Made by a program: the position numbers and the translations under genes | Part shown: piece by piece, positions 2,489 through 54,069 of the stretch | Position numbering within the stretch: the first letter of the stretch is position 1 | How the letters are laid out: each line of letters begins with the position of its first letter | The notes under the pieces: model-generated | Told to the model about the DNA's origin: nothing | Database searches by the model: none | Seen by the model: only the letters and a program-made list of their open reading frames with translations | Source of the DNA: a bacterium | Lineage (GTDB): Bacteria > UBA8248 > JACPRG01 > G963555815 | Assembly: GCA_965218795.1 (NCBI GenBank) | Contig: OZ244653.1 | Span: 1,920,001-1,984,000, forward strand | Length of the DNA stretch: 64,000 nucleotides | Reading direction: 5' to 3'

Positions 2489-4912
2489 CTAAGCGGTCTC
2501 CTGATAGAGGGCGGATTGAAGGCCGCGGGCGGCCTCGACGAAACCGTCCTTTCCGCCAAAGGCGTTGATCAACTGAACGGGCGTGCCGAGCTCGGTGAAG
2601 GGAAGAATGGTCAGGACCCTGGGATCGTCCAGATTGAGGACGCCCTCGTCCGCGTATTTGGCGAGCAGGGCGTCGAGCACGGCGCGGGCCTGGTCCCCGT
2701 ATTTGGCGAACACGTCGCGCTTCCTGACGTTATCGGCCCGCTCGCGCCGGGTGAGCGGCCTGGCGTCGAAGGCCACGTGGCAGATGAGGTCGAAGGGGTC
2801 GAGGTCCTTGGCCAATTCAGCGGCGACGAGATCGAGCGGCAGGCCCTCGGCCGCCAGCTCCTCGATGATCGCCTGCTTGCGCTCGGCGGCCTTCCAGCGC
2901 CTGAGGAAGTCGTCGAGGCCGGCGAAGCGCTTTTTCAGCGTTCTCTTGGTGAAGTCGCGCAGGGACTCGGTGACGAGCTTGCCGTTCTCGTCCAGATACT
3001 CGATCCGATCGGCGATGATCTCCGCGCTGACGCCGTCCACGTAGATTTTCTTCCTCCCGCCGTCTTGAGGGGGCGGAGCGGGATCGGTCGGGTCGTCGAG
3101 GATGGTCTCATCCTCTTCCGGCTCCGGCTGTTCGGAATCTTCGGGCGGGGTCATGGTGTCGTCCTCGCCGGGCTCGTAGATCTGCACCGGCTCGCCGTCG
3201 AACTCCGGATCCGCGAAATGGCGGGTTGCGCCGCGAAAGTCCATCAGCGTGAAATAGAATTTTCGGGTGTCCTCGTGGACGCGGGTGCCGCGTCCGACAA
3301 TCTGCTTGAACTCGGTCATGGAGCCCACCTCGCGGTCGAGGACGATGAGACGGCAGGTCTGAACGTCAACGCCGGTGGAGAGCAGCCGCGACGTGGTGAC
3401 CAGCACCGGGTATCTGGATTCCGGGTCGATGAAGTTGCCGAGCTCCGCCTGCCCGTCGGGATCGCCGCCGGTGATGCGCATGACGTAGCGGTGGTTACCG
3501 TCCACGAGGTCGGCGTTCTCGTTGATGAGGGCCTGGCGCATGCGGGCGGCGTGCTCCCGATCCACGCAGAAAACGATGGTCTTCTGAAAGGGATCGCCGC
3601 TTTCGGTCAGGAACCGGGTGACCTTGCGGGCGACGATCTTGGTCCGTTCGTCGAGCACGAGGTTGAGGTCGAAATCCCTGGTGTTGTAGATGCGGTCCTC
3701 GACCTCGATGCCGTCGCGATCCAACTGCCCTTTCTCGGGGCGGTAGCCTTCCACGTCGCGGTCGATGTGGACCCTGACGACCTTGTAGGGGGCGAGGAAG
3801 CCGTCCTGGATCCCCTGCTTGAGGGAGTAGGAGTAAACGGGCGAGCCGAAGTAATGGATGTTGGAGGCGTAGCTCGTCTCCCTGGGCGTGGCCGTGAGGC
3901 CGATCTGCGTGGCGGAGGAGAAGTAGTCCAGAATCTCGCGCCAGGCTGAATCATCGGCGGCGCTGCCGCGATGGCACTCGTCGATCACGATGAGATCGAA
4001 GAAACCGGGCGAAAACTCGCGAAAAACCTTCTGGTGCTCCTCCGGCCCGGTGATCGCCTGATAGAGGCCGAGATAGACTTCGTAGGCGGTGTCGATGCGG
4101 CGCTGCTTGCCCATAGCCGCGGCGAGGTCTTCCGAGGAGCCGTCCGCGCGCTCGATGGTCTTGGCTCTTGTCGAGAGCTTGGCCATCGCCGCCCCAAAAG
4201 GCCGGAAGTCGTTGACCATGGTCTGATCGACCAGGACGTTGCGATCCGCGAGGAACAGGATGCGCTTCTTGCGGCCCGCCTTCCACAGCCGCCAGATGAT
4301 CTGAAAGGCGGTGTAGGTCTTGCCCGTTCCCGTGGCCATGACGAGCAGGATGCGGTCGCGGCCCTTGGCGATGGCCTCGATGGCGGCGTTGACGGCATTG
4401 GCCTGGTAGTAGCGCGGGGCTTTGCCGCCGCCGTCGTGGTGATAATCCTGGAGGACGACGGCCTCGGCTTCGGGCGTCAGGCCCTTCCATGCGCGATAGC
4501 GCGCCCACAGGTCGCCCGGCGGCGGGAAGGAGTCGTTATCGAGGGTGGTCTCCTTCTCGGGGCCCGCGCCCGTGCGGTCGTGGAAGACGAAGCCGTCGCC
4601 GTTGGAGGAAAACACGAAGGGGATGTTGAGGGCCTCGGCGTAGCCCAGTCCCTGCTGTATGCCGCCGCCCATGGCGTGTGTGTTGTCCTTGGCTTCGATG
4701 AGGGCGATGGGGATGTTGGGCTTGTAATGGAGGATGTAGTCGGCCCGCTTGCCCTTTCCGCGGCTGACCAGCCTGCCGCGCACGGTGATGCGGCCCTTGG
4801 TGAAGCTCACCTCTTCGCGGATTTGCGTCATCTCGTCCCACCCGGCCTTGCGCAGGGCGGGCGTGATGAACTTGGTGCAGATGTCGCTTTCGGTGAGGCT
4901 TTTCTTGTCCAT
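2489..4912 (-). CDS. hsdR: Type I RM restriction subunit (EcoAI/EcoEI-like)
   Basis: ADY..IEAK nuclease motif, MATGTGKT, DECH, TATP, QIVGRGTR helicase motifs, C-terminal DPFDLICHVAFD. Start placed at MDKKSLTESDIC. Confidence 0.95.
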   Translation of the reverse strand: MDKKSLTESDICTKFITPALRKAGWDEMTQIREEVSFTKGRITVRGRLVSRGKGKRADYILHYKPNIPIALIEAKDNTHAMGGGIQQGLGYAEALNIPFVFSSNGDGFVFHDRTGAGPEKETTLDNDSFPPPGDLWARYRAWKGLTPEAEAVVLQDYHHDGGGKAPRYYQANAVNAAIEAIAKGRDRILLVMATGTGKTYTAFQIIWRLWKAGRKKRILFLADRNVLVDQTMVNDFRPFGAAMAKLSTRAKTIERADGSSEDLAAAMGKQRRIDTAYEVYLGLYQAITGPEEHQKVFREFSPGFFDLIVIDECHRGSAADDSAWREILDYFSSATQIGLTATPRETSYASNIHYFGSPVYSYSLKQGIQDGFLAPYKVVRVHIDRDVEGYRPEKGQLDRDGIEVEDRIYNTRDFDLNLVLDERTKIVARKVTRFLTESGDPFQKTIVFCVDREHAARMRQALINENADLVDGNHRYVMRITGGDPDGQAELGNFIDPESRYPVLVTTSRLLSTGVDVQTCRLIVLDREVGSMTEFKQIVGRGTRVHEDTRKFYFTLMDFRGATRHFADPEFDGEPVQIYEPGEDDTMTPPEDSEQPEPEEDETILDDPTDPAPPPQDGGRKKIYVDGVSAEIIADRIEYLDENGKLVTESLRDFTKRTLKKRFAGLDDFLRRWKAAERKQAIIEELAAEGLPLDLVAAELAKDLDPFDLICHVAFDARPLTRRERADNVRKRDVFAKYGDQARAVLDALLAKYADEGVLNLDDPRVLTILPFTELGTPVQLINAFGGKDGFVEAARGLQSALYQETA

Positions 4913-5152
4913 GCGGTGAATCTCCCGCCCGTCGGTCGTTCGTGCGATGGTGGAGCATGCGGGGTGGATCGTCAAGCACTTTGGAATCATCAACCCGCAC
5001 GAAGGGGGGACAGATTTATTTTTCCAGGATGAGACGAAGGGCGGGACGGGAAACGCGGGATCCTGGGGCCACCCTGCTGAATGAATGACTTTCGGATTGG
5101 TGTGCCCCCTGCTGAAACCATGCAGGGACAGGCTCTGGGTCATTCCCGCCCT

Positions 5153-5812
5153 TGGTGGACCCCTTCAGACTGTGCGCAGGAGGAGTTCAGATGGCAAAGA
5201 CCATCTGCCCTACGCGCCGGAATACCGGCGCCAGATGGTCGAGTTGGTCCGCTCGGGCCGGACGCCCGGGGAGCTGGCTTCGAGAATACGAGGGCTCCAC
5301 TTCGGCAATTCGCAACTGGGTGCGTCAGGCCGACCGGGACGGGGACCGTCGTGAGGATGGTCTGACGGCAGCAGAGCTTGAGGAGCTACGACGGCTTCGC
5401 CGGGAGAACCGTCAGCTTCGCGAGGAGCGTGAGATATTAAAAAGAATCCACGGCTTGGTTACGCACGGGAGACCGGTTGGGTGCCGGGTGCTGGGCGTCT
5501 CCTCCAGCGGGTACTACGCGTGGCGTGGCGGTGGGCGTTCTCTTCGTGCGAAGCGCGACGAGGAGCTACGCGGTGTGATTCGGGCCCTCCACGAGGCGTC
5601 TCGGGGCACTTACGGGGGGCACCTCGGGTCCAGGCCGAGTTGGCGGCTCAGGGATGCCGGGTGAGTCGCAAGCGGGTGGCTCGTCTGATGCGCGAGGTGG
5701 GCTTGGGGAGGTGAGCCGGCGCCGAGGCACACACACCGGGCGTGTAGACCCGGGCCATCGTGTTCGATGGGTTCAGCCGCCGGGTGGTGAGATGGACGAT
5801 GGCCCATCCTCT
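5153..5812 (+). mobile_element. Degenerate IS3-family element (frameshifted orfA/orfB fragments)
   Basis: Pieces PYAPEYRRQMVELVRSGR / IRNWVRQAD..ELRRLRRENRQLREEREILK / CRVLGVSSSGYYAW / YGAPRVQAEL..RKRVARLMR / FDGFSRRVVRW in shifting frames. Confidence 0.85.
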
Positions 5813-5817
5813 TCTCC

Positions 5818-6298
5818 ACTCGGCTACAAGCCCCTGGTCGGCGCCCAGATGCGCTACGCCGTCCACGACCGCGACGGCCGGCCGGTCGCCATGCTCGGCT
5901 TCAGCTCCGCCGCGTGGAAGCTGGCCCCTCGAGACCGCTTCATCGGTTGGACGCCGCAACTGCGCGAGAAGAACCTCCCCCTCGTGGTCGACAACCCGAG
6001 GTTCCTCATCCTGCCCTGGAGCAAGATCCCCAACCTGGGCTCGCACATCCTCGCCATCGTCCGCCGGCGCCTGCCCGAGGACTGGACCGGGCGCTACAAC
6101 ACCACCCCCGTGCTCATCGAGACCTTCGTCCAGACCCCGCGCTACACCGGCGCCGTCTACAGGGCATCGGGCTGGATCCATGTCGGAACCACCCAGGGAC
6201 GCGGACGCTACGACAGGGACAGACACTACGACAAGCCGAAGAAGGACATCTGGCCGCGACCGCTGCGGAGAAACTGGAAGCAAATCCTCAATCGCTGA
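5818..6298 (+). pseudogene. DUF4338 (Druantia DruA-like) domain, 5'-truncated, carried inside an IS66-type element end
   Basis: LGYKPLVGAQMRY..LGFSSAAWKLAPRDRFIGW..NPRFLILPW..NLGSHIL..DW..RY..PVLIETFV..GAVYRASGW.HVGTTQGRG; stop lies about 10 bp before the IR at 6309-6332. Confidence 0.85.
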
Positions 6299-6308
6299 AA
6301 CGACCGCC

Positions 6309-6332
6309 ATCACCCCACGGTTGAATGGTTAC
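6309..6332. repeat. Right terminal inverted repeat of an IS66/ISBst12-like element
   Basis: ATCACCCCACGGTTGAATGGTTAC; its reverse complement starts GTAACCATTCA, the GTAA-type end known for IS66. Confidence 0.75.
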
Positions 6333-6340
6333 CGACAGGG

Positions 6341-6575
6341 GTAACCGTTCAGTCGTGGGGTGATAGAGCGGACTCCAGCATCGTCTGGGTCTAGCTTGAC
6401 GGCGGGTGCACGGACATGATGACCAGGTTGAGAATTTTGGCCGTGTACCGCAACCGCTTGATTCTCCTGCCGCCTTCTAATTGCGAAAGCACTGGGTCGG
6501 GGCGACCACGTTCGGACAAGACAACGGACCGCTGCTGGCCCCGCCGCCATCATCACCCCACGAGCGAACGGTTAT
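6341..6575. mobile_element. 235-bp MITE with IS66-type ends and 8-bp target duplication
   Basis: Left IR GTAACCGTTCAGTCGTGGGGTGAT (6341-6364), right IR ATCACCCCACGAGCGAACGGTTAT (6552-6575), flanked by CGACAGGG at 6333-6340 and 6576-6583. Confidence 0.85.
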
Positions 6576-6745
6576 CGACAGGGACTCGCCGAGATGCGCA
6601 GGAGTTTTAACGAATCCGCTTTCATTTTGATGACGGACTGCAGAAGGCAGGTTCCGAATGAGATTGGGAATCATGTATATTCCCAATAATATCAATAGGA
6701 TATTAGGTTTCACAGTCGACGAAAATAGATCGATATATCTATCCG
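6576..6745 (-). repeat. Conserved non-coding element, copy 1 (inverted relative to 53510-53681)
   Basis: Reverse complement of 6576-6636 matches 53621-53681 at 55/61 positions without gaps; weaker similarity continues through the AT-rich 6640-6745. Confidence 0.85.
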
Positions 6746-6824
6746 AACAAACGATATCTTGCCAAAGGGGAAACGAGAACCCCCGGATGACAGAGGGAAG
6801 GAGCCGTGACATCGGCAGAGAAGA

Positions 6825-7364: not shown

Positions 7365-7919
7365 CTAAAGAGATTCGAAAGCGGTGTCTACATCTTGGTG
7401 TTCATCAATTCTTTTTGATAATTCACGAGCTTTATCTTCTTCATATCCAAGAGCTAAAAAGATGCTTTTGTATGATGTTGGCTTTGATGTTCCGTATGGA
7501 TTTTTCCATTCTTTAAGGGTGTGTGTGTAATTTCGAAGTTGCCACTTGTCAAAATCACCAAATTCTTTCCAGGTATGTTCAAGAATCTCCATATCAGCTT
7601 CACTAAGCTCATCAAAATCATCAGCACATGTCTGTACTTTGAGTTTGGTATCATACCCCTCACGGGGCGATATCCATGAATCCCAACCGTCCTCAACAGA
7701 TTCAATAGACGTACCATTAGCTAGATTAAGTGTATTTGACAATACCAATCCGTGATCCATTGAAACTACGAAATCGCCTGTCATTGGCATACCATAACGA
7801 TTAAGAGACTCTCGCTCAGAGAGATATAAAAGCTTCATTAGTTTGAGTATCGCCATTTCTCCACCTTGGCGTTGGAGAAAATATGCAGCCATTTGCGCTA
7901 CTTTTCGTTCATCAAACAT
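7365..7919 (-). CDS. Panacea (SocA/GepA/DUF4065) domain antitoxin
   Basis: LKLMKLLYLSERESLNRYG.PMTGD..SMDHG.VLS..LSEAD.EIL..QLRNYTH..EW; low GC. Confidence 0.88.
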   Translation of the reverse strand: MFDERKVAQMAAYFLQRQGGEMAILKLMKLLYLSERESLNRYGMPMTGDFVVSMDHGLVLSNTLNLANGTSIESVEDGWDSWISPREGYDTKLKVQTCADDFDELSEADMEILEHTWKEFGDFDKWQLRNYTHTLKEWKNPYGTSKPTSYKSIFLALGYEEDKARELSKRIDEHQDVDTAFESL

Positions 7920-52979: not shown

Positions 52980-53315
52980 CTACTTTTTTGCTTTGCAAGG
53001 ATTTGCAGCCTTCATGGCCTTCATAGCCTTCTTGTCCTTCATGGGCATCGCAGCCTTCTTGTCCTTCATGGGCATCACGGCCTTCTTGTCCTTCATGGGC
53101 ATCGCGGCCTTCTTGTCCTTCATGGGCATCGCAGCCTTCTTGTCCTTCATGGGCATCGCGGCCTTCTCGTCCTTCATGGGCATCGCGGCCTTCTTGTCCT
53201 TCATGGGCGCGCAGGGATTTGCAGCCTTCTTCTCGGCGGCGTAGACCACGGAGCCTCCTGCTACAAAGAGAACTGCAACAGCCGCAATCAGGAAACTACT
53301 GAAAAGCTTCTTCAT
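52980..53315 (-). CDS. Secreted Met/Lys-rich tandem-repeat protein
   Basis: Signal peptide MKKLFSS..VYA; seven PMKD(K/E)K units between two AANPC motifs. Confidence 0.85.
   Translation of the reverse strand: MKKLFSSFLIAAVAVLFVAGGSVVYAAEKKAANPCAPMKDKKAAMPMKDEKAAMPMKDKKAAMPMKDKKAAMPMKDKKAVMPMKDKKAAMPMKDKKAMKAMKAANPCKAKK
53027..53207. repeat. 27-bp tandem repeat (about 6.7 units)
   Basis: GCCTTCTTGTCCTTCATGGGCATCGC(A/G) repeated, encoding AAMPMKDKK. Confidence 0.95.
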
Positions 53316-53509
53316 GAACCTTACTCCTCTCAATGGGATCTGAAGCGTTGAAATGGCTGATGACTTCGGACCGGTTCCGACCATCAACCCGAGAAAGAAA
53401 TTTTTTCTTATTCACCGACTTGTCACCGGACTATAACCGACATTCAAGGGGAGAATTTCCAGCTATGCCATTTTTTGGTCGAGATGACATTTAAATGACA
53501 TTTCGTTGA

Positions 53510-53681
53510 CAGAGAACTATATCGAACCATTCTCATCAGCCGTGAAGATCTACTAACATATTGATATTGTTGGATAATAGACATTCTTCCTGCTCTTGTT
53601 TAGAACTTACCTCGCGTAGACCGTAATCAAAATGAAAGCGGATTCGTTAAAACGCCCGCGCATCCAGGCGAGTCCCTGGCG
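53510..53681 (+). repeat. Conserved non-coding element, copy 2
   Basis: Inverted homolog of 6576-6745; contains TAACATATTGATA (IHF consensus WATCAANNNNTTR on the minus strand). Confidence 0.85.
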
Positions 53682-53804
53682 GTAAGCATTCAGTCACGCG
53701 GTGATGGCGGTCAGGAAAGCACCGGTCCAAACCGACTACGCCGCGCAATATCAACAACTGCCTCCGGCACCAGCGACCATCTCACCCCACGACTGAATGG
53801 TTAC
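53682..53804. mobile_element. 123-bp MITE with IS66-type ends and 8-bp target duplication
   Basis: GTAAGCATTCAGTCACGCGGTGAT ... CTCACCCCACGACTGAATGGTTAC, flanked by CCCTGGCG at 53674-81 and 53805-12. Confidence 0.85.
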
Positions 53805-54069
53805 CCCTGGCGAACCGTTGCACCTTCCTAAAAAAAAGTACGATCCCGCAACAACTCGCTTACGGTTACGCCCCGGCACTGAAATCTTACCGTTGGTCCG
53901 CGCCGGTCAGCCATGGCCGGAAGCTTGCTTACGACGATGGTAACCGTGTTCGCGCGCGTGGCATCGTATCACCCGGAGGGCCGTAGCGAAGCGAAGGAGC
54001 CGCGAAGCGGCTTGACGCGACGCCAAGCGCGGAGTTGCCGGCGGGTGCTCTTATGCGAATCACGCCGCG

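What the first reader, a model, noticed from the sequence alone, without database searches (positions are those of the whole stretch)
6309..6745. Site-specific landing pad: IS66-type elements stacked in tandem at one 8-bp target next to a conserved leader-like element
Seen: [DUF4338 element end GGTTAC]-CGACAGGG-[235-bp MITE]-CGACAGGG-[conserved element]. A second, inverted copy of that element lies 47 kb away (53510-53681; 55/61 nt identical over the proximal part, weaker AT-rich similarity for about 110 bp more). It carries a different-sized MITE of the same family at exactly the homologous 8-mer (CCCTGGCG, reverse complement CGCCAGGG). Known: IS66 elements have GTAA ends and 8-bp duplications but are not generally described as site-specific. 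Inference: at least three insertions at one homologous position imply a dedicated attachment site where elements accumulate in a polar tandem array. The architecture recalls an integron attI or a CRISPR leader, including an IHF-consensus motif in the AT-rich part. This is my best candidate for an undescribed system.
Basis: partly seen in the sequence, partly recalled or inferred. Interest (0 to 1): 0.8.

Follow-up and report, generated by a model that had tools for sequence, protein, structure and literature searches.

The report
IS66-type elements target one repeat site
Dead copies of an IS66-type jumping gene and its miniature derivatives sit at the same few bases inside a short repeated DNA element, here and in related bacteria, so this transposon lineage appears to choose a specific landing site, which I did not find described for its family.

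Summary
At 6327-6590 and 53666-53820, elements with GTAA...TTAC ends sit between 8-bp direct repeats next to a shared sequence.

The "leader-like element" (E) is not a unique pad. It is a dispersed non-coding repeat: 19 copies plus 2 partial ones in this genome, and present in 17 of 41 relatives. Its uninterrupted form is U-8mer-E.

The inserted units belong to a two-gene IS66-family IS (a ~784-aa DDE_Tnp_IS66 transposase plus a DruA/DUF4338 protein) and to its MITEs.

- They lie a fixed 16-18 nt from E's GATGCGC motif in 32 of 34 scored junctions.
- That covers 5 of 19 E copies here and 18 of 19 in a sister-genus genome.
- Local 8-mers match on both sides of an insert but differ between loci.
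- Both orientations occur, and the position shifts by about 1 nt in some copies.
- The MITEs are more alike (96%) than their host repeats (83%).

This indicates repeated independent site-directed transposition, sometimes in tandem.

This genome holds no intact IS66 transposase, so its copies are relics. E gave no Rfam match and no conserved RNA fold, and is not regularly next to an integrase or repeat array. What E is, and how it is recognised, remain open.

Verdict: a new variant of a known kind (a site-specific IS that targets a repeat). Moderate interest.

The parts
5150..5664 (+). Context: an IS3-like left-end fragment (terminal-repeat core at 5150-5172 and an orfA-like ORF at 5152-5664). 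It truncates the IS66-type element on its left.
   Evidence: Terminal-repeat match with 3 mismatches at genome position 1925150. Pfam HTH_Tnp_1 E 3.9e-5.
5819..6332 (+). Right-hand remnant of a two-gene IS66-family IS: the 3' part of the DruA/DUF4338 gene (stop at 6298) and the 26-bp right terminal repeat (6307-6332, ...GGTTAC).
   Evidence: Pfam DruA E 3.6e-34 over aa 56-188 of ORF 5654-6298. tblastn matches to other copies start at aa 42-56. Terminal-repeat match with 2 mismatches. Full elements in relatives carry the transposase plus this gene.
6333..6340 (.). First copy of the 8-bp target word CGACAGGG.
6341..6575 (+). 235-bp MITE with IS66-type inverted ends (GTAACCGTTCAG...CGAACGGTTAT).
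   Evidence: Its interior (38-208) is 66-68% identical to an internal stretch of the full IS in three genomes. The same MITE sits at the same site in G004.
6576..6583 (.). Second copy of CGACAGGG (target-site duplication, E-proximal).
6584..6750 (+). E, the right half of the dispersed U-8mer-E repeat. Its conserved blocks are GATGCGC, TTTTAACGAATCCGCTTTCATTTTGAT and ATAATATCAAT. The U half is missing at this locus.
   Evidence: 21 BLAST matches in the genome including itself. Alignments.
53508..53673 (-). Second E copy.
53674..53681 (.). 8-bp word CCCTGGCG (CGCCAGGG in E orientation), E-proximal copy.
53682..53804 (+). 123-bp MITE of the same terminal-repeat family.
   Evidence: It is 96% identical to the copy at genome 2639804-2639926, which lies in the opposite orientation relative to E, and 85% identical to the copy at 166701-166823.
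53805..53812 (.). Second copy of CCCTGGCG (target-site duplication, U-proximal).
53813..53890 (-). U, the left half of the repeat (reverse complement of ...GTAACCGTAAGCGAGTTGTTGCGG...GGTGCAACGGTT). This shows the MITE split an intact U-8mer-E unit.
   Evidence: read against the uninterrupted copies. BLAST match 1973805-1973879 to U.

Best explanation
An IS66-family insertion sequence of about 3.3-3.4 kb, and the short non-autonomous MITEs derived from it, transpose by preference into one position of a dispersed non-coding repeat, U-8mer-E. The IS carries a 781-794-aa transposase with a DDE_Tnp_IS66 domain and a long coiled-coil N-terminus, an overlapping DruA/DUF4338 gene, and 26-bp GTAA... 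terminal repeats. Each insertion duplicates the local 8 bp.

The insertion point lies a fixed 16-18 nt upstream of E's conserved GATGCGC motif. A minor second site lies about 11 nt further away.

Inferred, not shown: an element-encoded protein (the transposase N-terminus or the DruA-like protein) or a host protein binds the conserved ~60 bp of E and sets the strand-transfer site by distance, as Tn7's TnsD does at attTn7. Also inferred: because the E-proximal copy of the duplication keeps that distance, a further insertion can land on it again, which would produce the tandem stacks.

In this genome the lineage is extinct. Only MITEs and truncated IS remnants remain.
For: (1) The target pre-exists. 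Six U-8mer-E copies are uninterrupted in G000 by my reading. Occupied copies have U on the far side of the insert: c166692, c1973673, c2639 and c3110980 in G000, and L020 and L033 in G004.

(2) The distance is fixed. It is 17 nt in 23 junctions, 16 in 5, 18 in 4, and 27 or 29 in 2, out of 34 scored. Occupied copies number 5 of 19 in G000, 18 of 19 in G004, and 11 of 32 among exact-motif hits in other genomes by a strict regex. About 7 more are visible by eye.

(3) The events are independent.
- The 8-mers match on both sides of an insert but differ between loci: CGCCAGGG at locus 2, CGACAGGG at c166692.
- The position appears shifted by 1 nt at c2197143, c2639 and c3110980.
- Both orientations occur.
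- At least four occupant types flank near-identical E units in G004.
- Two MITE123 copies are 96% identical while their host E copies are 83% identical.

(4) The 8-mer alone does not explain the pattern. Only 16 of 866 such words lie at E, yet 11 of 16 terminal-repeat matches belong to inserts there.

(5) The element is a DDE transposon. Pfam DDE_Tnp_IS66 scores E 7e-55. Matching 8-bp duplications of unrelated sequence flank copies at 6 of 7 G036 loci.

(6) All 9 relatives with the transposase are among the 17 that have E. None of the 24 without E has it. These genomes are kin, so this is not an independent test.

(7) Two ISs sit in tandem at one site offset by 1 nt in G036 locus L058, so repeated hits on one site occur in this lineage.
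Against: - The 8 near-identical IS copies examined in G036 all lie at flanks unrelated to U-8mer-E. The preference is therefore not absolute, or it is lineage-specific, or there is a second pathway.
- Several junctions in other genomes lack a clean duplication: L099/L118, L063 and L162.
- In G004, 586-bp units (E plus an IS256-type 3' fragment) are about 99% identical at 6 loci. Some occupied copies there may have spread as composites or by gene conversion rather than by new insertions.
- Old insertions have been filtered by selection, so abundance in a neutral repeat is partly survivorship. That does not explain single-base precision.
- No recognition factor was identified. The AlphaFold model of the DruA-like protein was too poor to use (mean pLDDT 45).
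- What U-8mer-E itself is remains unknown.
Confidence: 0.75

Rival explanations
1. One ancestral insertion into one repeat copy was later spread with the repeat, by duplication of the composite or by gene conversion between repeat copies. The shared position would then be inherited rather than chosen.
For: - The arrangement [IS end]-8mer-[235-bp MITE]-8mer-E seen at locus 1 also occurs in G004 (L023/L043), with the same MITE.
- G004 E units are about 99% identical at 6 loci.
- L039 and L040 share 6.4 kb that includes the IS and E.
Against: - The 8-mer differs between loci but matches on both sides within a locus.
- MITE123 lies in opposite orientations at two loci, and is 96% identical where the host E copies are 83% identical.
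- MITE235 and MITE123 share only their ends.
- Four occupant types sit beside near-identical E units.
- The position appears shifted by 1 nt at three loci.
- The same fixed distance is seen with diverged terminal repeats and 8-mers in genomes whose records are titled as different phyla.
Confidence: 0.1
2. The direction is the reverse. E is the mobile unit and inserts next to the ...TTAC tip of IS66-type ends, in the way IS608 inserts 3' of TTAC. The IS ends would then attract E.
For: - Many E copies begin at the 8-mer with unrelated sequence to the left.
- More than half of the E copies in several genomes abut a ...TAC end.
- E units in G004 look recently amplified.
Against: - Uninterrupted U-8mer-E copies exist in several genera.
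- In occupied copies the other half (U) and a second copy of the 8-mer lie on the far side of the insert. That is the signature of insertion into U-8mer-E.
- The inserted units make 8-bp duplications at unrelated sites elsewhere.
- In uninterrupted copies E's left neighbour ends in ...GGTC, not TTAC.
Confidence: 0.05
3. E is the recombination or acquisition site of a dedicated system resembling an integron attI or a CRISPR leader, served by a recombinase or a guide RNA.
For: - Stacks of units in one register, separated by the same 8-mer.
- An AT-rich conserved module lies next to the site.
Against: - The units carry inverted terminal repeats, and their autonomous relatives encode a DDE transposase.
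- No stack holds more than two units.
- E is dispersed in about 20 copies with unrelated downstream DNA.
- A tyrosine-integrase gene lies within 6 kb of only 2 of 21 copies.
- No Rfam match and no consensus RNA structure on either strand.
- Both orientations of the inserted unit occur.
Confidence: 0.03
4. The joins are assembly artefacts produced where repeats collapse.
For: The region is rich in repeats. Short-read depth is very uneven across 5800-6200.
Against: - Short-read contigs of 421 bp cover 6188-6608 without a difference in 2 of 4 runs.
- The same architecture recurs at several loci of this one-contig genome and in other assemblies.
Confidence: 0.01

Closest known systems
IS66 family insertion sequences (IS66, IS679, ISRm14; single-ORF ISBst12 group). 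Family features are recalled from ISfinder-type descriptions, not from a call.
   Same: DDE_Tnp_IS66 transposase domain, terminal repeats starting GTAA, and 8-bp target duplications.
   Different: - I found no tnpA or tnpB among the ORFs scanned.
- The transposase has an extra coiled-coil N-terminus of about 330 aa.
- It is followed by a DruA/DUF4338 gene.
- Insertion shows a strong preference for one position. I found this neither for the family from recall nor in my paper searches.
Site-specific ISs that target repeated sequences: IS1397/ISKpn1 (IS3 family) into REP/BIME units, IS1111/IS110 members into REP or attC, IS4321/IS5075 into Tn21-family terminal repeats. All recalled. For IS1111/IS110 I saw only the abstracts listed.
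   Same: An IS repeatedly uses one position in a multicopy, probably dispensable sequence as a safe haven, and many target copies are occupied.
   Different: - The transposase family differs.
- The IS110/IS1111 group uses a DEDD enzyme with a guide RNA and makes no such duplication. Here the enzyme is DDE and makes an 8-bp duplication.
- The target is a 300-500-bp repeat of unknown nature, not a REP hairpin or a transposon end.
Tn7 insertion at attTn7 directed by TnsD. I saw only the abstract of PMC2918618 in the listing; the rest is recalled.
   Same: Insertion at a fixed distance from a conserved sequence that is itself not cut. This is the working model here.
   Different: - No TnsABCD homologues were seen.
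- The target is multicopy and probably mobile, not an essential gene.
- Both orientations occur.
- The selector protein is unidentified.
Integron attI and CRISPR leader
   Same: Units can pile up next to one conserved module, separated by one short word.
   Different: There are no attC sites and no repeat array. A tyrosine-integrase gene lies near only 2 of 21 copies, and IntI and cas genes were not searched for as such. Stacks hold at most two units. The units are transposon derivatives.
Druantia type I protein DruA (Pfam PF14236)
   Same: The accessory gene of the IS matches the DruA family in Pfam (E 3.7e-36) and weakly in PADLOC (DruA1, E 1.6e-4).
   Different: - It is a short protein of 293-324 aa inside a transposon, with no Druantia genes seen beside it.
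- It is very conserved: about 80% identity across the 120 homologues listed.
- One passage I read in PMC10853773 calls DUF4338 a GNAT-like acetyltransferase domain. I did not see that paper's supplements.

Membership tests
IS66 family (the inserted elements) | Transposase with the DDE_Tnp_IS66 domain | tested here: met
   The 784-aa ORF of the full element in G036 (L046) matches PF03050 at E 7.1e-55 over profile positions 3-282 of 284. This is not met inside this genome: the 158-aa transposase piece found 0 matches, and PF03050 found one 57-position fragment.
IS66 family (the inserted elements) | Terminal inverted repeats beginning GTAA, and 8-bp target duplication (definition recalled) | tested here: met
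   26-bp repeats GTAA(C/G)C... at both ends. Matching 8-bp flanks at 6 of 7 G036 loci, at window locus 2, and at c166692.
IS66 family, canonical three-gene type | Accessory genes tnpA and tnpB upstream of tnpC (definition recalled) | tested here: not met
   Pfam and NCBIfam scans of the ORFs of the G004 element found only a weak IS66-transposase match and DruA. At 13 of 14 loci the element is the transposase followed by the DruA-like gene.
MITE (the 235-bp and 123-bp units) | Short, with terminal inverted repeats of an autonomous IS, a target duplication, and no transposase | tested here: met
   The MITE235 interior is 66-68% identical to an internal IS segment. The MITE123 copies share the terminal repeats.
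Integron attI site | Adjacent intI tyrosine recombinase, and cassettes ending in attC | tested here: not met
   A tblastn search with one tyrosine integrase of this genome found such a gene within 6 kb of 2 of 21 E copies. IntI itself was not searched for. The inserted units have inverted repeats and DDE relatives.
CRISPR leader | Abuts a repeat-spacer array | tested here: not met
   DNA downstream of E is unrelated between copies beyond about 170-500 bp and shows no array. cas genes were not searched for.
Structured non-coding RNA (for U-8mer-E) | Rfam family match, or a conserved structure with covariation | tested here: not met
   No relevant Rfam match at E <= 1 in six uninterrupted copies. 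RNAalifold on 25 copies gave 3 pairs at -0.09 kcal/mol on the forward strand and 3 pairs at -1.9 on the reverse strand. There was no compensatory change.
Non-autonomous IS3-family derivative (for U-8mer-E) | IS3-type inverted ends bracketing the unit, with a 3-4-bp duplication | tested here: inconclusive
   An IS3-like left end lies 195-1427 nt upstream in 6 of 19 copies, but at different junctions. The fuzzy search found no IS3 right end downstream of any of the 19 copies. By eye, E's last 30 nt only resemble one. The longest shared form starts at about -330 without the IS3 end.

The most novel reading that the evidence does not exclude
This IS66 lineage has a true attachment site. An element-encoded selector binds the conserved ~60-bp module of E and places strand transfer one fixed distance away, or one helical turn further. 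My guess for the selector is the highly conserved DruA-like protein or the transposase's long N-terminus. Renewed insertion at the E-proximal copy of the duplication would build polar stacks. Druantia's DruA would then be a domesticated relative of a transposon targeting factor. The dispersed repeat would act as a genome-wide safe harbour, or trap, for these elements.
Probability: 0.2. Interest if true: 0.8.

Novelty: new variant of a known kind. Interest (0 to 1): 0.55.

Why it matters
- The transposition chemistry and target choice of the IS66 family are poorly understood. A lineage with base-precise, distance-measured targeting of a defined 60-bp module gives a concrete handle for study: a binding site, two candidate selector proteins and a simple assay.
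- It ties the DruA/DUF4338 family, a Druantia defence component for which I know of no established function (recalled), to a very abundant transposon gene. My searches found at least 4990 homologues at E <= 1e-10.
- It shows how nested mobile DNA can build ordered stacks that look like cassette arrays, which is a caution for genome scans.
- For this genome in particular the copies are fossils, and they mark IS-rich accessory DNA.

Tried and rejected
- Rfam: the whole window at gathering thresholds gave only a tRNA. Six uninterrupted repeat copies at E <= 1 gave one chance snoRNA match.
- RNA structure of U-8mer-E: none on either strand.
- tRNA idea for the 60-100-nt repeat upstream of long copies: ARAGORN found a tRNA near only 1 of 21 copies. 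That repeat is an IS3-type left end.
- U as the right end of that IS3: rejected, because the IS3's own right end is different.
- E as the left end of an IS256-type IS: in G004, E is fused to a Transposase_mut 3' fragment plus right end. However, G000 has no such gene by that query, full-length relatives have no E upstream, and no IS256 left end bounds the G004 units.
- Integrase or att-site idea: 2 of 21 copies lie near an integrase.
- UE derived from the IS itself: the only BLAST match was the E copy that lay inside the G021 slice I used.
- Promoter scan: one weak sigma-70-like match per locus, in opposite senses relative to E and within the chance range.
- Empty-site search in three relatives: no syntenic match.
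- Plasmid collection (distant DNA search) and viral contigs: no U-8mer-E. JGI metagenome contigs: one hit, again occupied and stacked but without a clean duplication.
- Earlier notes of this scan by sequence: nothing.
- Expression: no RNA holder was listed, so nothing can be said about expression.
- AlphaFold model of the DruA-like protein: mean pLDDT 45, with only residues 1-70 moderately confident. I therefore ran no fold search and make no structural claim.
- Papers: searches for DUF4338 (4 papers), IS66 family with target-site terms, ISBst12 with IS66, and DruA with transposase turned up no description of an IS66-DruA element or of IS66 site specificity. I read passages of PMC10853773 and PMC13639185, and otherwise only listings and abstracts. 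No supplements were opened.
- The 3.6-kb direct repeat in G021 that I suspected to be an insertion is a tandem duplication.
Full report
**What is in the window.**
- Locus 1: a right terminal repeat ending GGTTAC (6307-6332), CGACAGGG (6333-6340), a 235-bp unit with GTAA...TTAT inverted ends (6341-6575), CGACAGGG again (6576-6583), then the shared sequence E from 6584.
- Locus 2, on the other strand: E ends at 53673, followed by CCCTGGCG, a 123-bp unit (53682-53804), and CCCTGGCG again.
- The ORF to the left of locus 1 matches Pfam DruA/DUF4338. An IS3-like fragment cuts it off at its 5' side.
- The two E copies are 51 of 61 identical at their start, not 55 of 61.
- The IHF consensus is present only in the locus-2 copy.
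- Short-read contigs from two runs cover 6188-6608 without a difference. An assembly chimera is therefore unlikely, although those runs may not be independent of the assembly.

**The 'conserved element' is a dispersed repeat.** BLAST of E against the one-contig 5.17-Mb genome gives 21 matches including itself, of which 2 are partial.
- Alignment with flanks shows six copies by my reading in which E continues leftward, without interruption, through the 8-mer into a second conserved half, U. It reads ...CCGGAGCGTAACCGTAAGCGAGTTGTTGCGG.TCGGACTTTGGAGG...GGTGCAACGGTC | CGACAGGG | ACTCGCC...
- At locus 2 the sequence beyond the second CCCTGGCG is exactly this U half. The 123-bp unit therefore split an intact U-8mer-E and duplicated 8 bp.
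- The longest shared form of the repeat starts about 330 nt left of the 8-mer and ends about 165-190 nt to its right.

**What the inserted units are.** A fuzzy search for the terminal repeat finds 16 matches in the genome, and 11 belong to inserts at the E site.
- Full-length relatives occur in other genomes. They are 3.3-3.4-kb elements with 26-bp GTAA... terminal repeats.
- They carry a 781-794-aa ORF with a DDE_Tnp_IS66 domain (E 7e-55) behind a coiled-coil N-terminus of about 330 aa.
- An overlapping DruA/DUF4338 gene of 293-324 aa follows. The pair is present at 13 of 14 loci examined.
- At 6 of 7 G036 loci the copies are flanked by matching 8-bp duplications of unrelated sequence. These are ordinary DDE transposition products.
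- This genome has no such transposase: 0 matches to the 158-aa transposase piece and one 57-position PF03050 fragment. It has three truncated DruA-like genes plus a weaker partial match at about 175 kb.
- MITE235 keeps 66-68% identity to an internal IS segment. MITE123 shares only the ends with it.

**Evidence for site choice.** I measured the distance from the tip of the terminal repeat to E's GATGCGC motif.
- The distance is 17 nt in 23 junctions, 16 in 5, 18 in 4, and 27 or 29 in 2, out of 34 scored.
- Occupied copies: 5 of 19 in G000. A sixth (c2638960) has a MITE at the U side and a further 840-bp insertion before E.
- Occupied copies: 18 of 19 in the sister-genus genome G004.
- Occupied copies: 11 of 32 exact-motif hits in other public genomes by a strict regex, with about 7 more visible by eye.
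- Those records are titled Nitrospinota or Nitrospinaceae MAGs, unnamed MAGs, and two alphaproteobacterial families.
- In those genomes the 8-mer and the terminal repeat have diverged (for example TTAC|GACAAAGG or TTAC|GACGTGGA), yet the distance to the motif is kept.
- The 27-30-nt class also appears by eye in three G021 copies and one JGI contig. It lies about one helical turn further out. I read that as consistent with a protein measuring along one face of the DNA. This is an inference.

**Independence of the events.**
- The 8-mer is CGCCAGGG on both sides at locus 2 and CGACAGGG on both sides at c166692.
- The site appears shifted by one base at c2197143, c2639 and c3110980. A 1-nt deletion cannot be excluded.
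- The full IS lies in both orientations in G004 (L022 and L027 against L021, L024 and L028-L031).
- MITE123 lies in opposite orientations at loci 1973 and 2639, where it is 96% identical while the host E copies are 83% identical.
- The genome holds 866 CGACAGGG or CGCCAGGG words, and only 16 lie at E. The word alone therefore cannot explain the pattern.
- The G036 targets do hint at an intrinsic preference for CGACA-like words. In reverse complement they read GACAAGGA, CGGCAGGC and CGACACGA. This is my reading of 6 sites.

**Stacks.**
- Locus 1 is [IS remnant]-8mer-[MITE]-8mer-E.
- G004 L033 is U-8mer-MITE-8mer-MITE-8mer-E. L023 is IS-8mer-MITE-8mer-E.
- A JGI contig shows another stack.
- In G036 L058, two full ISs sit in tandem at a site unrelated to E, offset by 1 nt.
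- No stack exceeds two units. If E positions the insertion, the E-proximal copy of the duplication stays at the right distance, so re-insertion there is expected. I could not test polarity.

**What speaks against a strict attachment site.**
- All 8 near-identical G036 copies examined are away from E, although G036 has E copies.
- Some junctions lack clean duplications.
- In G004, E is fused to an IS256-type 3' fragment, and this 586-bp unit is about 99% identical at six loci with different right flanks. I cannot explain how that unit spreads.

**What U-8mer-E is.** This is unresolved.
- It has no consistent ORF by my reading of the alignments, which show 1-2-nt indels between copies.
- It has no Rfam family and no conserved fold.
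- It has no regular gene downstream and no link to integrases.
- It gave no match in the plasmid or viral collections.
- It lies in IS-rich DNA. An IS3-type left end lies upstream in 6 of 19 copies, but at different junctions.
- In one genus E's right end runs into a 20-nt word that is itself dispersed: 50-65 copies in three genomes and none in G000 or G004.
- Its most conserved part is the ~60 bp next to the insertion site.

**Distribution.**
- E is found in 17 of 41 relatives and the transposase in 9 of 41, all of them among the 17. These genomes are related, so this is descriptive only.
- In public protein collections my searches found at least 1155 transposase homologues at E <= 1e-20 and at least 4990 DruA-like homologues at E <= 1e-10. 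The DruA-like proteins listed are about 80% identical and mostly 293 aa long. Two of the 120 listed are read-through fusions with PF03050.

**Comparison and verdict.**
- The elements meet the IS66 family's domain, end and duplication criteria, but not the canonical three-gene layout.
- Functionally the closest precedents are ISs that home to repeats (IS1397, IS1111/IS110 members, IS4321/IS5075; recalled) and Tn7's distance-measured attTn7 insertion.
- The site is not an integron or CRISPR-like acquisition site.
- I rate it a new variant of a known kind. The site specificity is well supported (about 0.75). The recognition mechanism and the nature of the target repeat are inferred or unknown. 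In this window everything is a relic.

Noticed in passing
window 2489-5143 (-) and 7365-7919 (-): A type I restriction R subunit (ResIII, EcoEI_R_C and HSDR_N domains) lies just left of locus 1. A SocA/Panacea antitoxin-domain protein lies just right of it. Locus 1 therefore sits in defence and accessory DNA.
   Followed up: no
window 52980-53387 (-), repeats at about 53000-53230: A small ORF with a signal-peptide-like start and many tandem copies of a 33-nt unit (KDKKAAMPM-type) lies downstream of the locus-2 E copy. It has no Pfam family.
   Followed up: no
G000:C1 about 1909569-1910980 and three other places (2655600, 177916, 1637421): A 1411-bp IS3-family element in four near-identical copies (three pairs 100% identical, one 99.9%). 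Its left end reads TGGAGTTGACC... and its right end ...GGTAAATCCA. About 37 related left ends are scattered in the genome.
   Followed up: partly
G000:C1 2197153-2245487: Two truncated IS66-type remnants with identical right terminal repeats face outward 48 kb apart. One abuts E and the other does not. This looks like an inversion or a composite structure.
   Followed up: no
G004 loci L039-L044 (for example L039:5999-6584): E is fused to the last 117 codons and the right end of an IS256-type transposase gene. This 586-bp unit is about 99% identical at six loci with different right flanks. How it spreads is unexplained.
   Followed up: partly
G036 locus L058:1781-8615: Two full 3.4-kb IS66-DruA elements lie in direct tandem, separated by 9 nt. 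This is consistent with two insertions at one site offset by 1 nt, away from any E copy.
   Followed up: partly
G021, G035 and G036 genome-wide; for example L161:782-845: The 20-nt word AAACCCCGTGAATTTATCGA is dispersed in 50-65 copies per genome in one genus, sometimes as 21-nt tandem pairs and often 40-60 nt beyond E. It has no copies in G000 or G004.
   Followed up: partly
G000 c1997727 and c2638960; loci L016, L017, L110; G036 L046 and L055: A REP-like palindrome (GGCCGGGTAGGCGGGG...CCCCGCCTACCCGGCC type) repeatedly lies next to the E site or next to IS66-type ends.
   Followed up: no
plasmid NZ_CP020371.1 261804-262313 (hit H2): A protein annotated as 'ISAs1 family transposase' matches residues 139-309 of the DruA-like protein at 43% identity. 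On NZ_CP020372.1 a stand-alone DUF4338 gene sits among IS91 and IS4 genes, between two genes both annotated as DUF2235 domain proteins.
   Followed up: no
window 5802-6203: Summed short-read contig depth rises to thousands over the conserved part of the DruA-like gene in all four runs. Many related copies from other organisms are therefore present in those samples.
   Followed up: no
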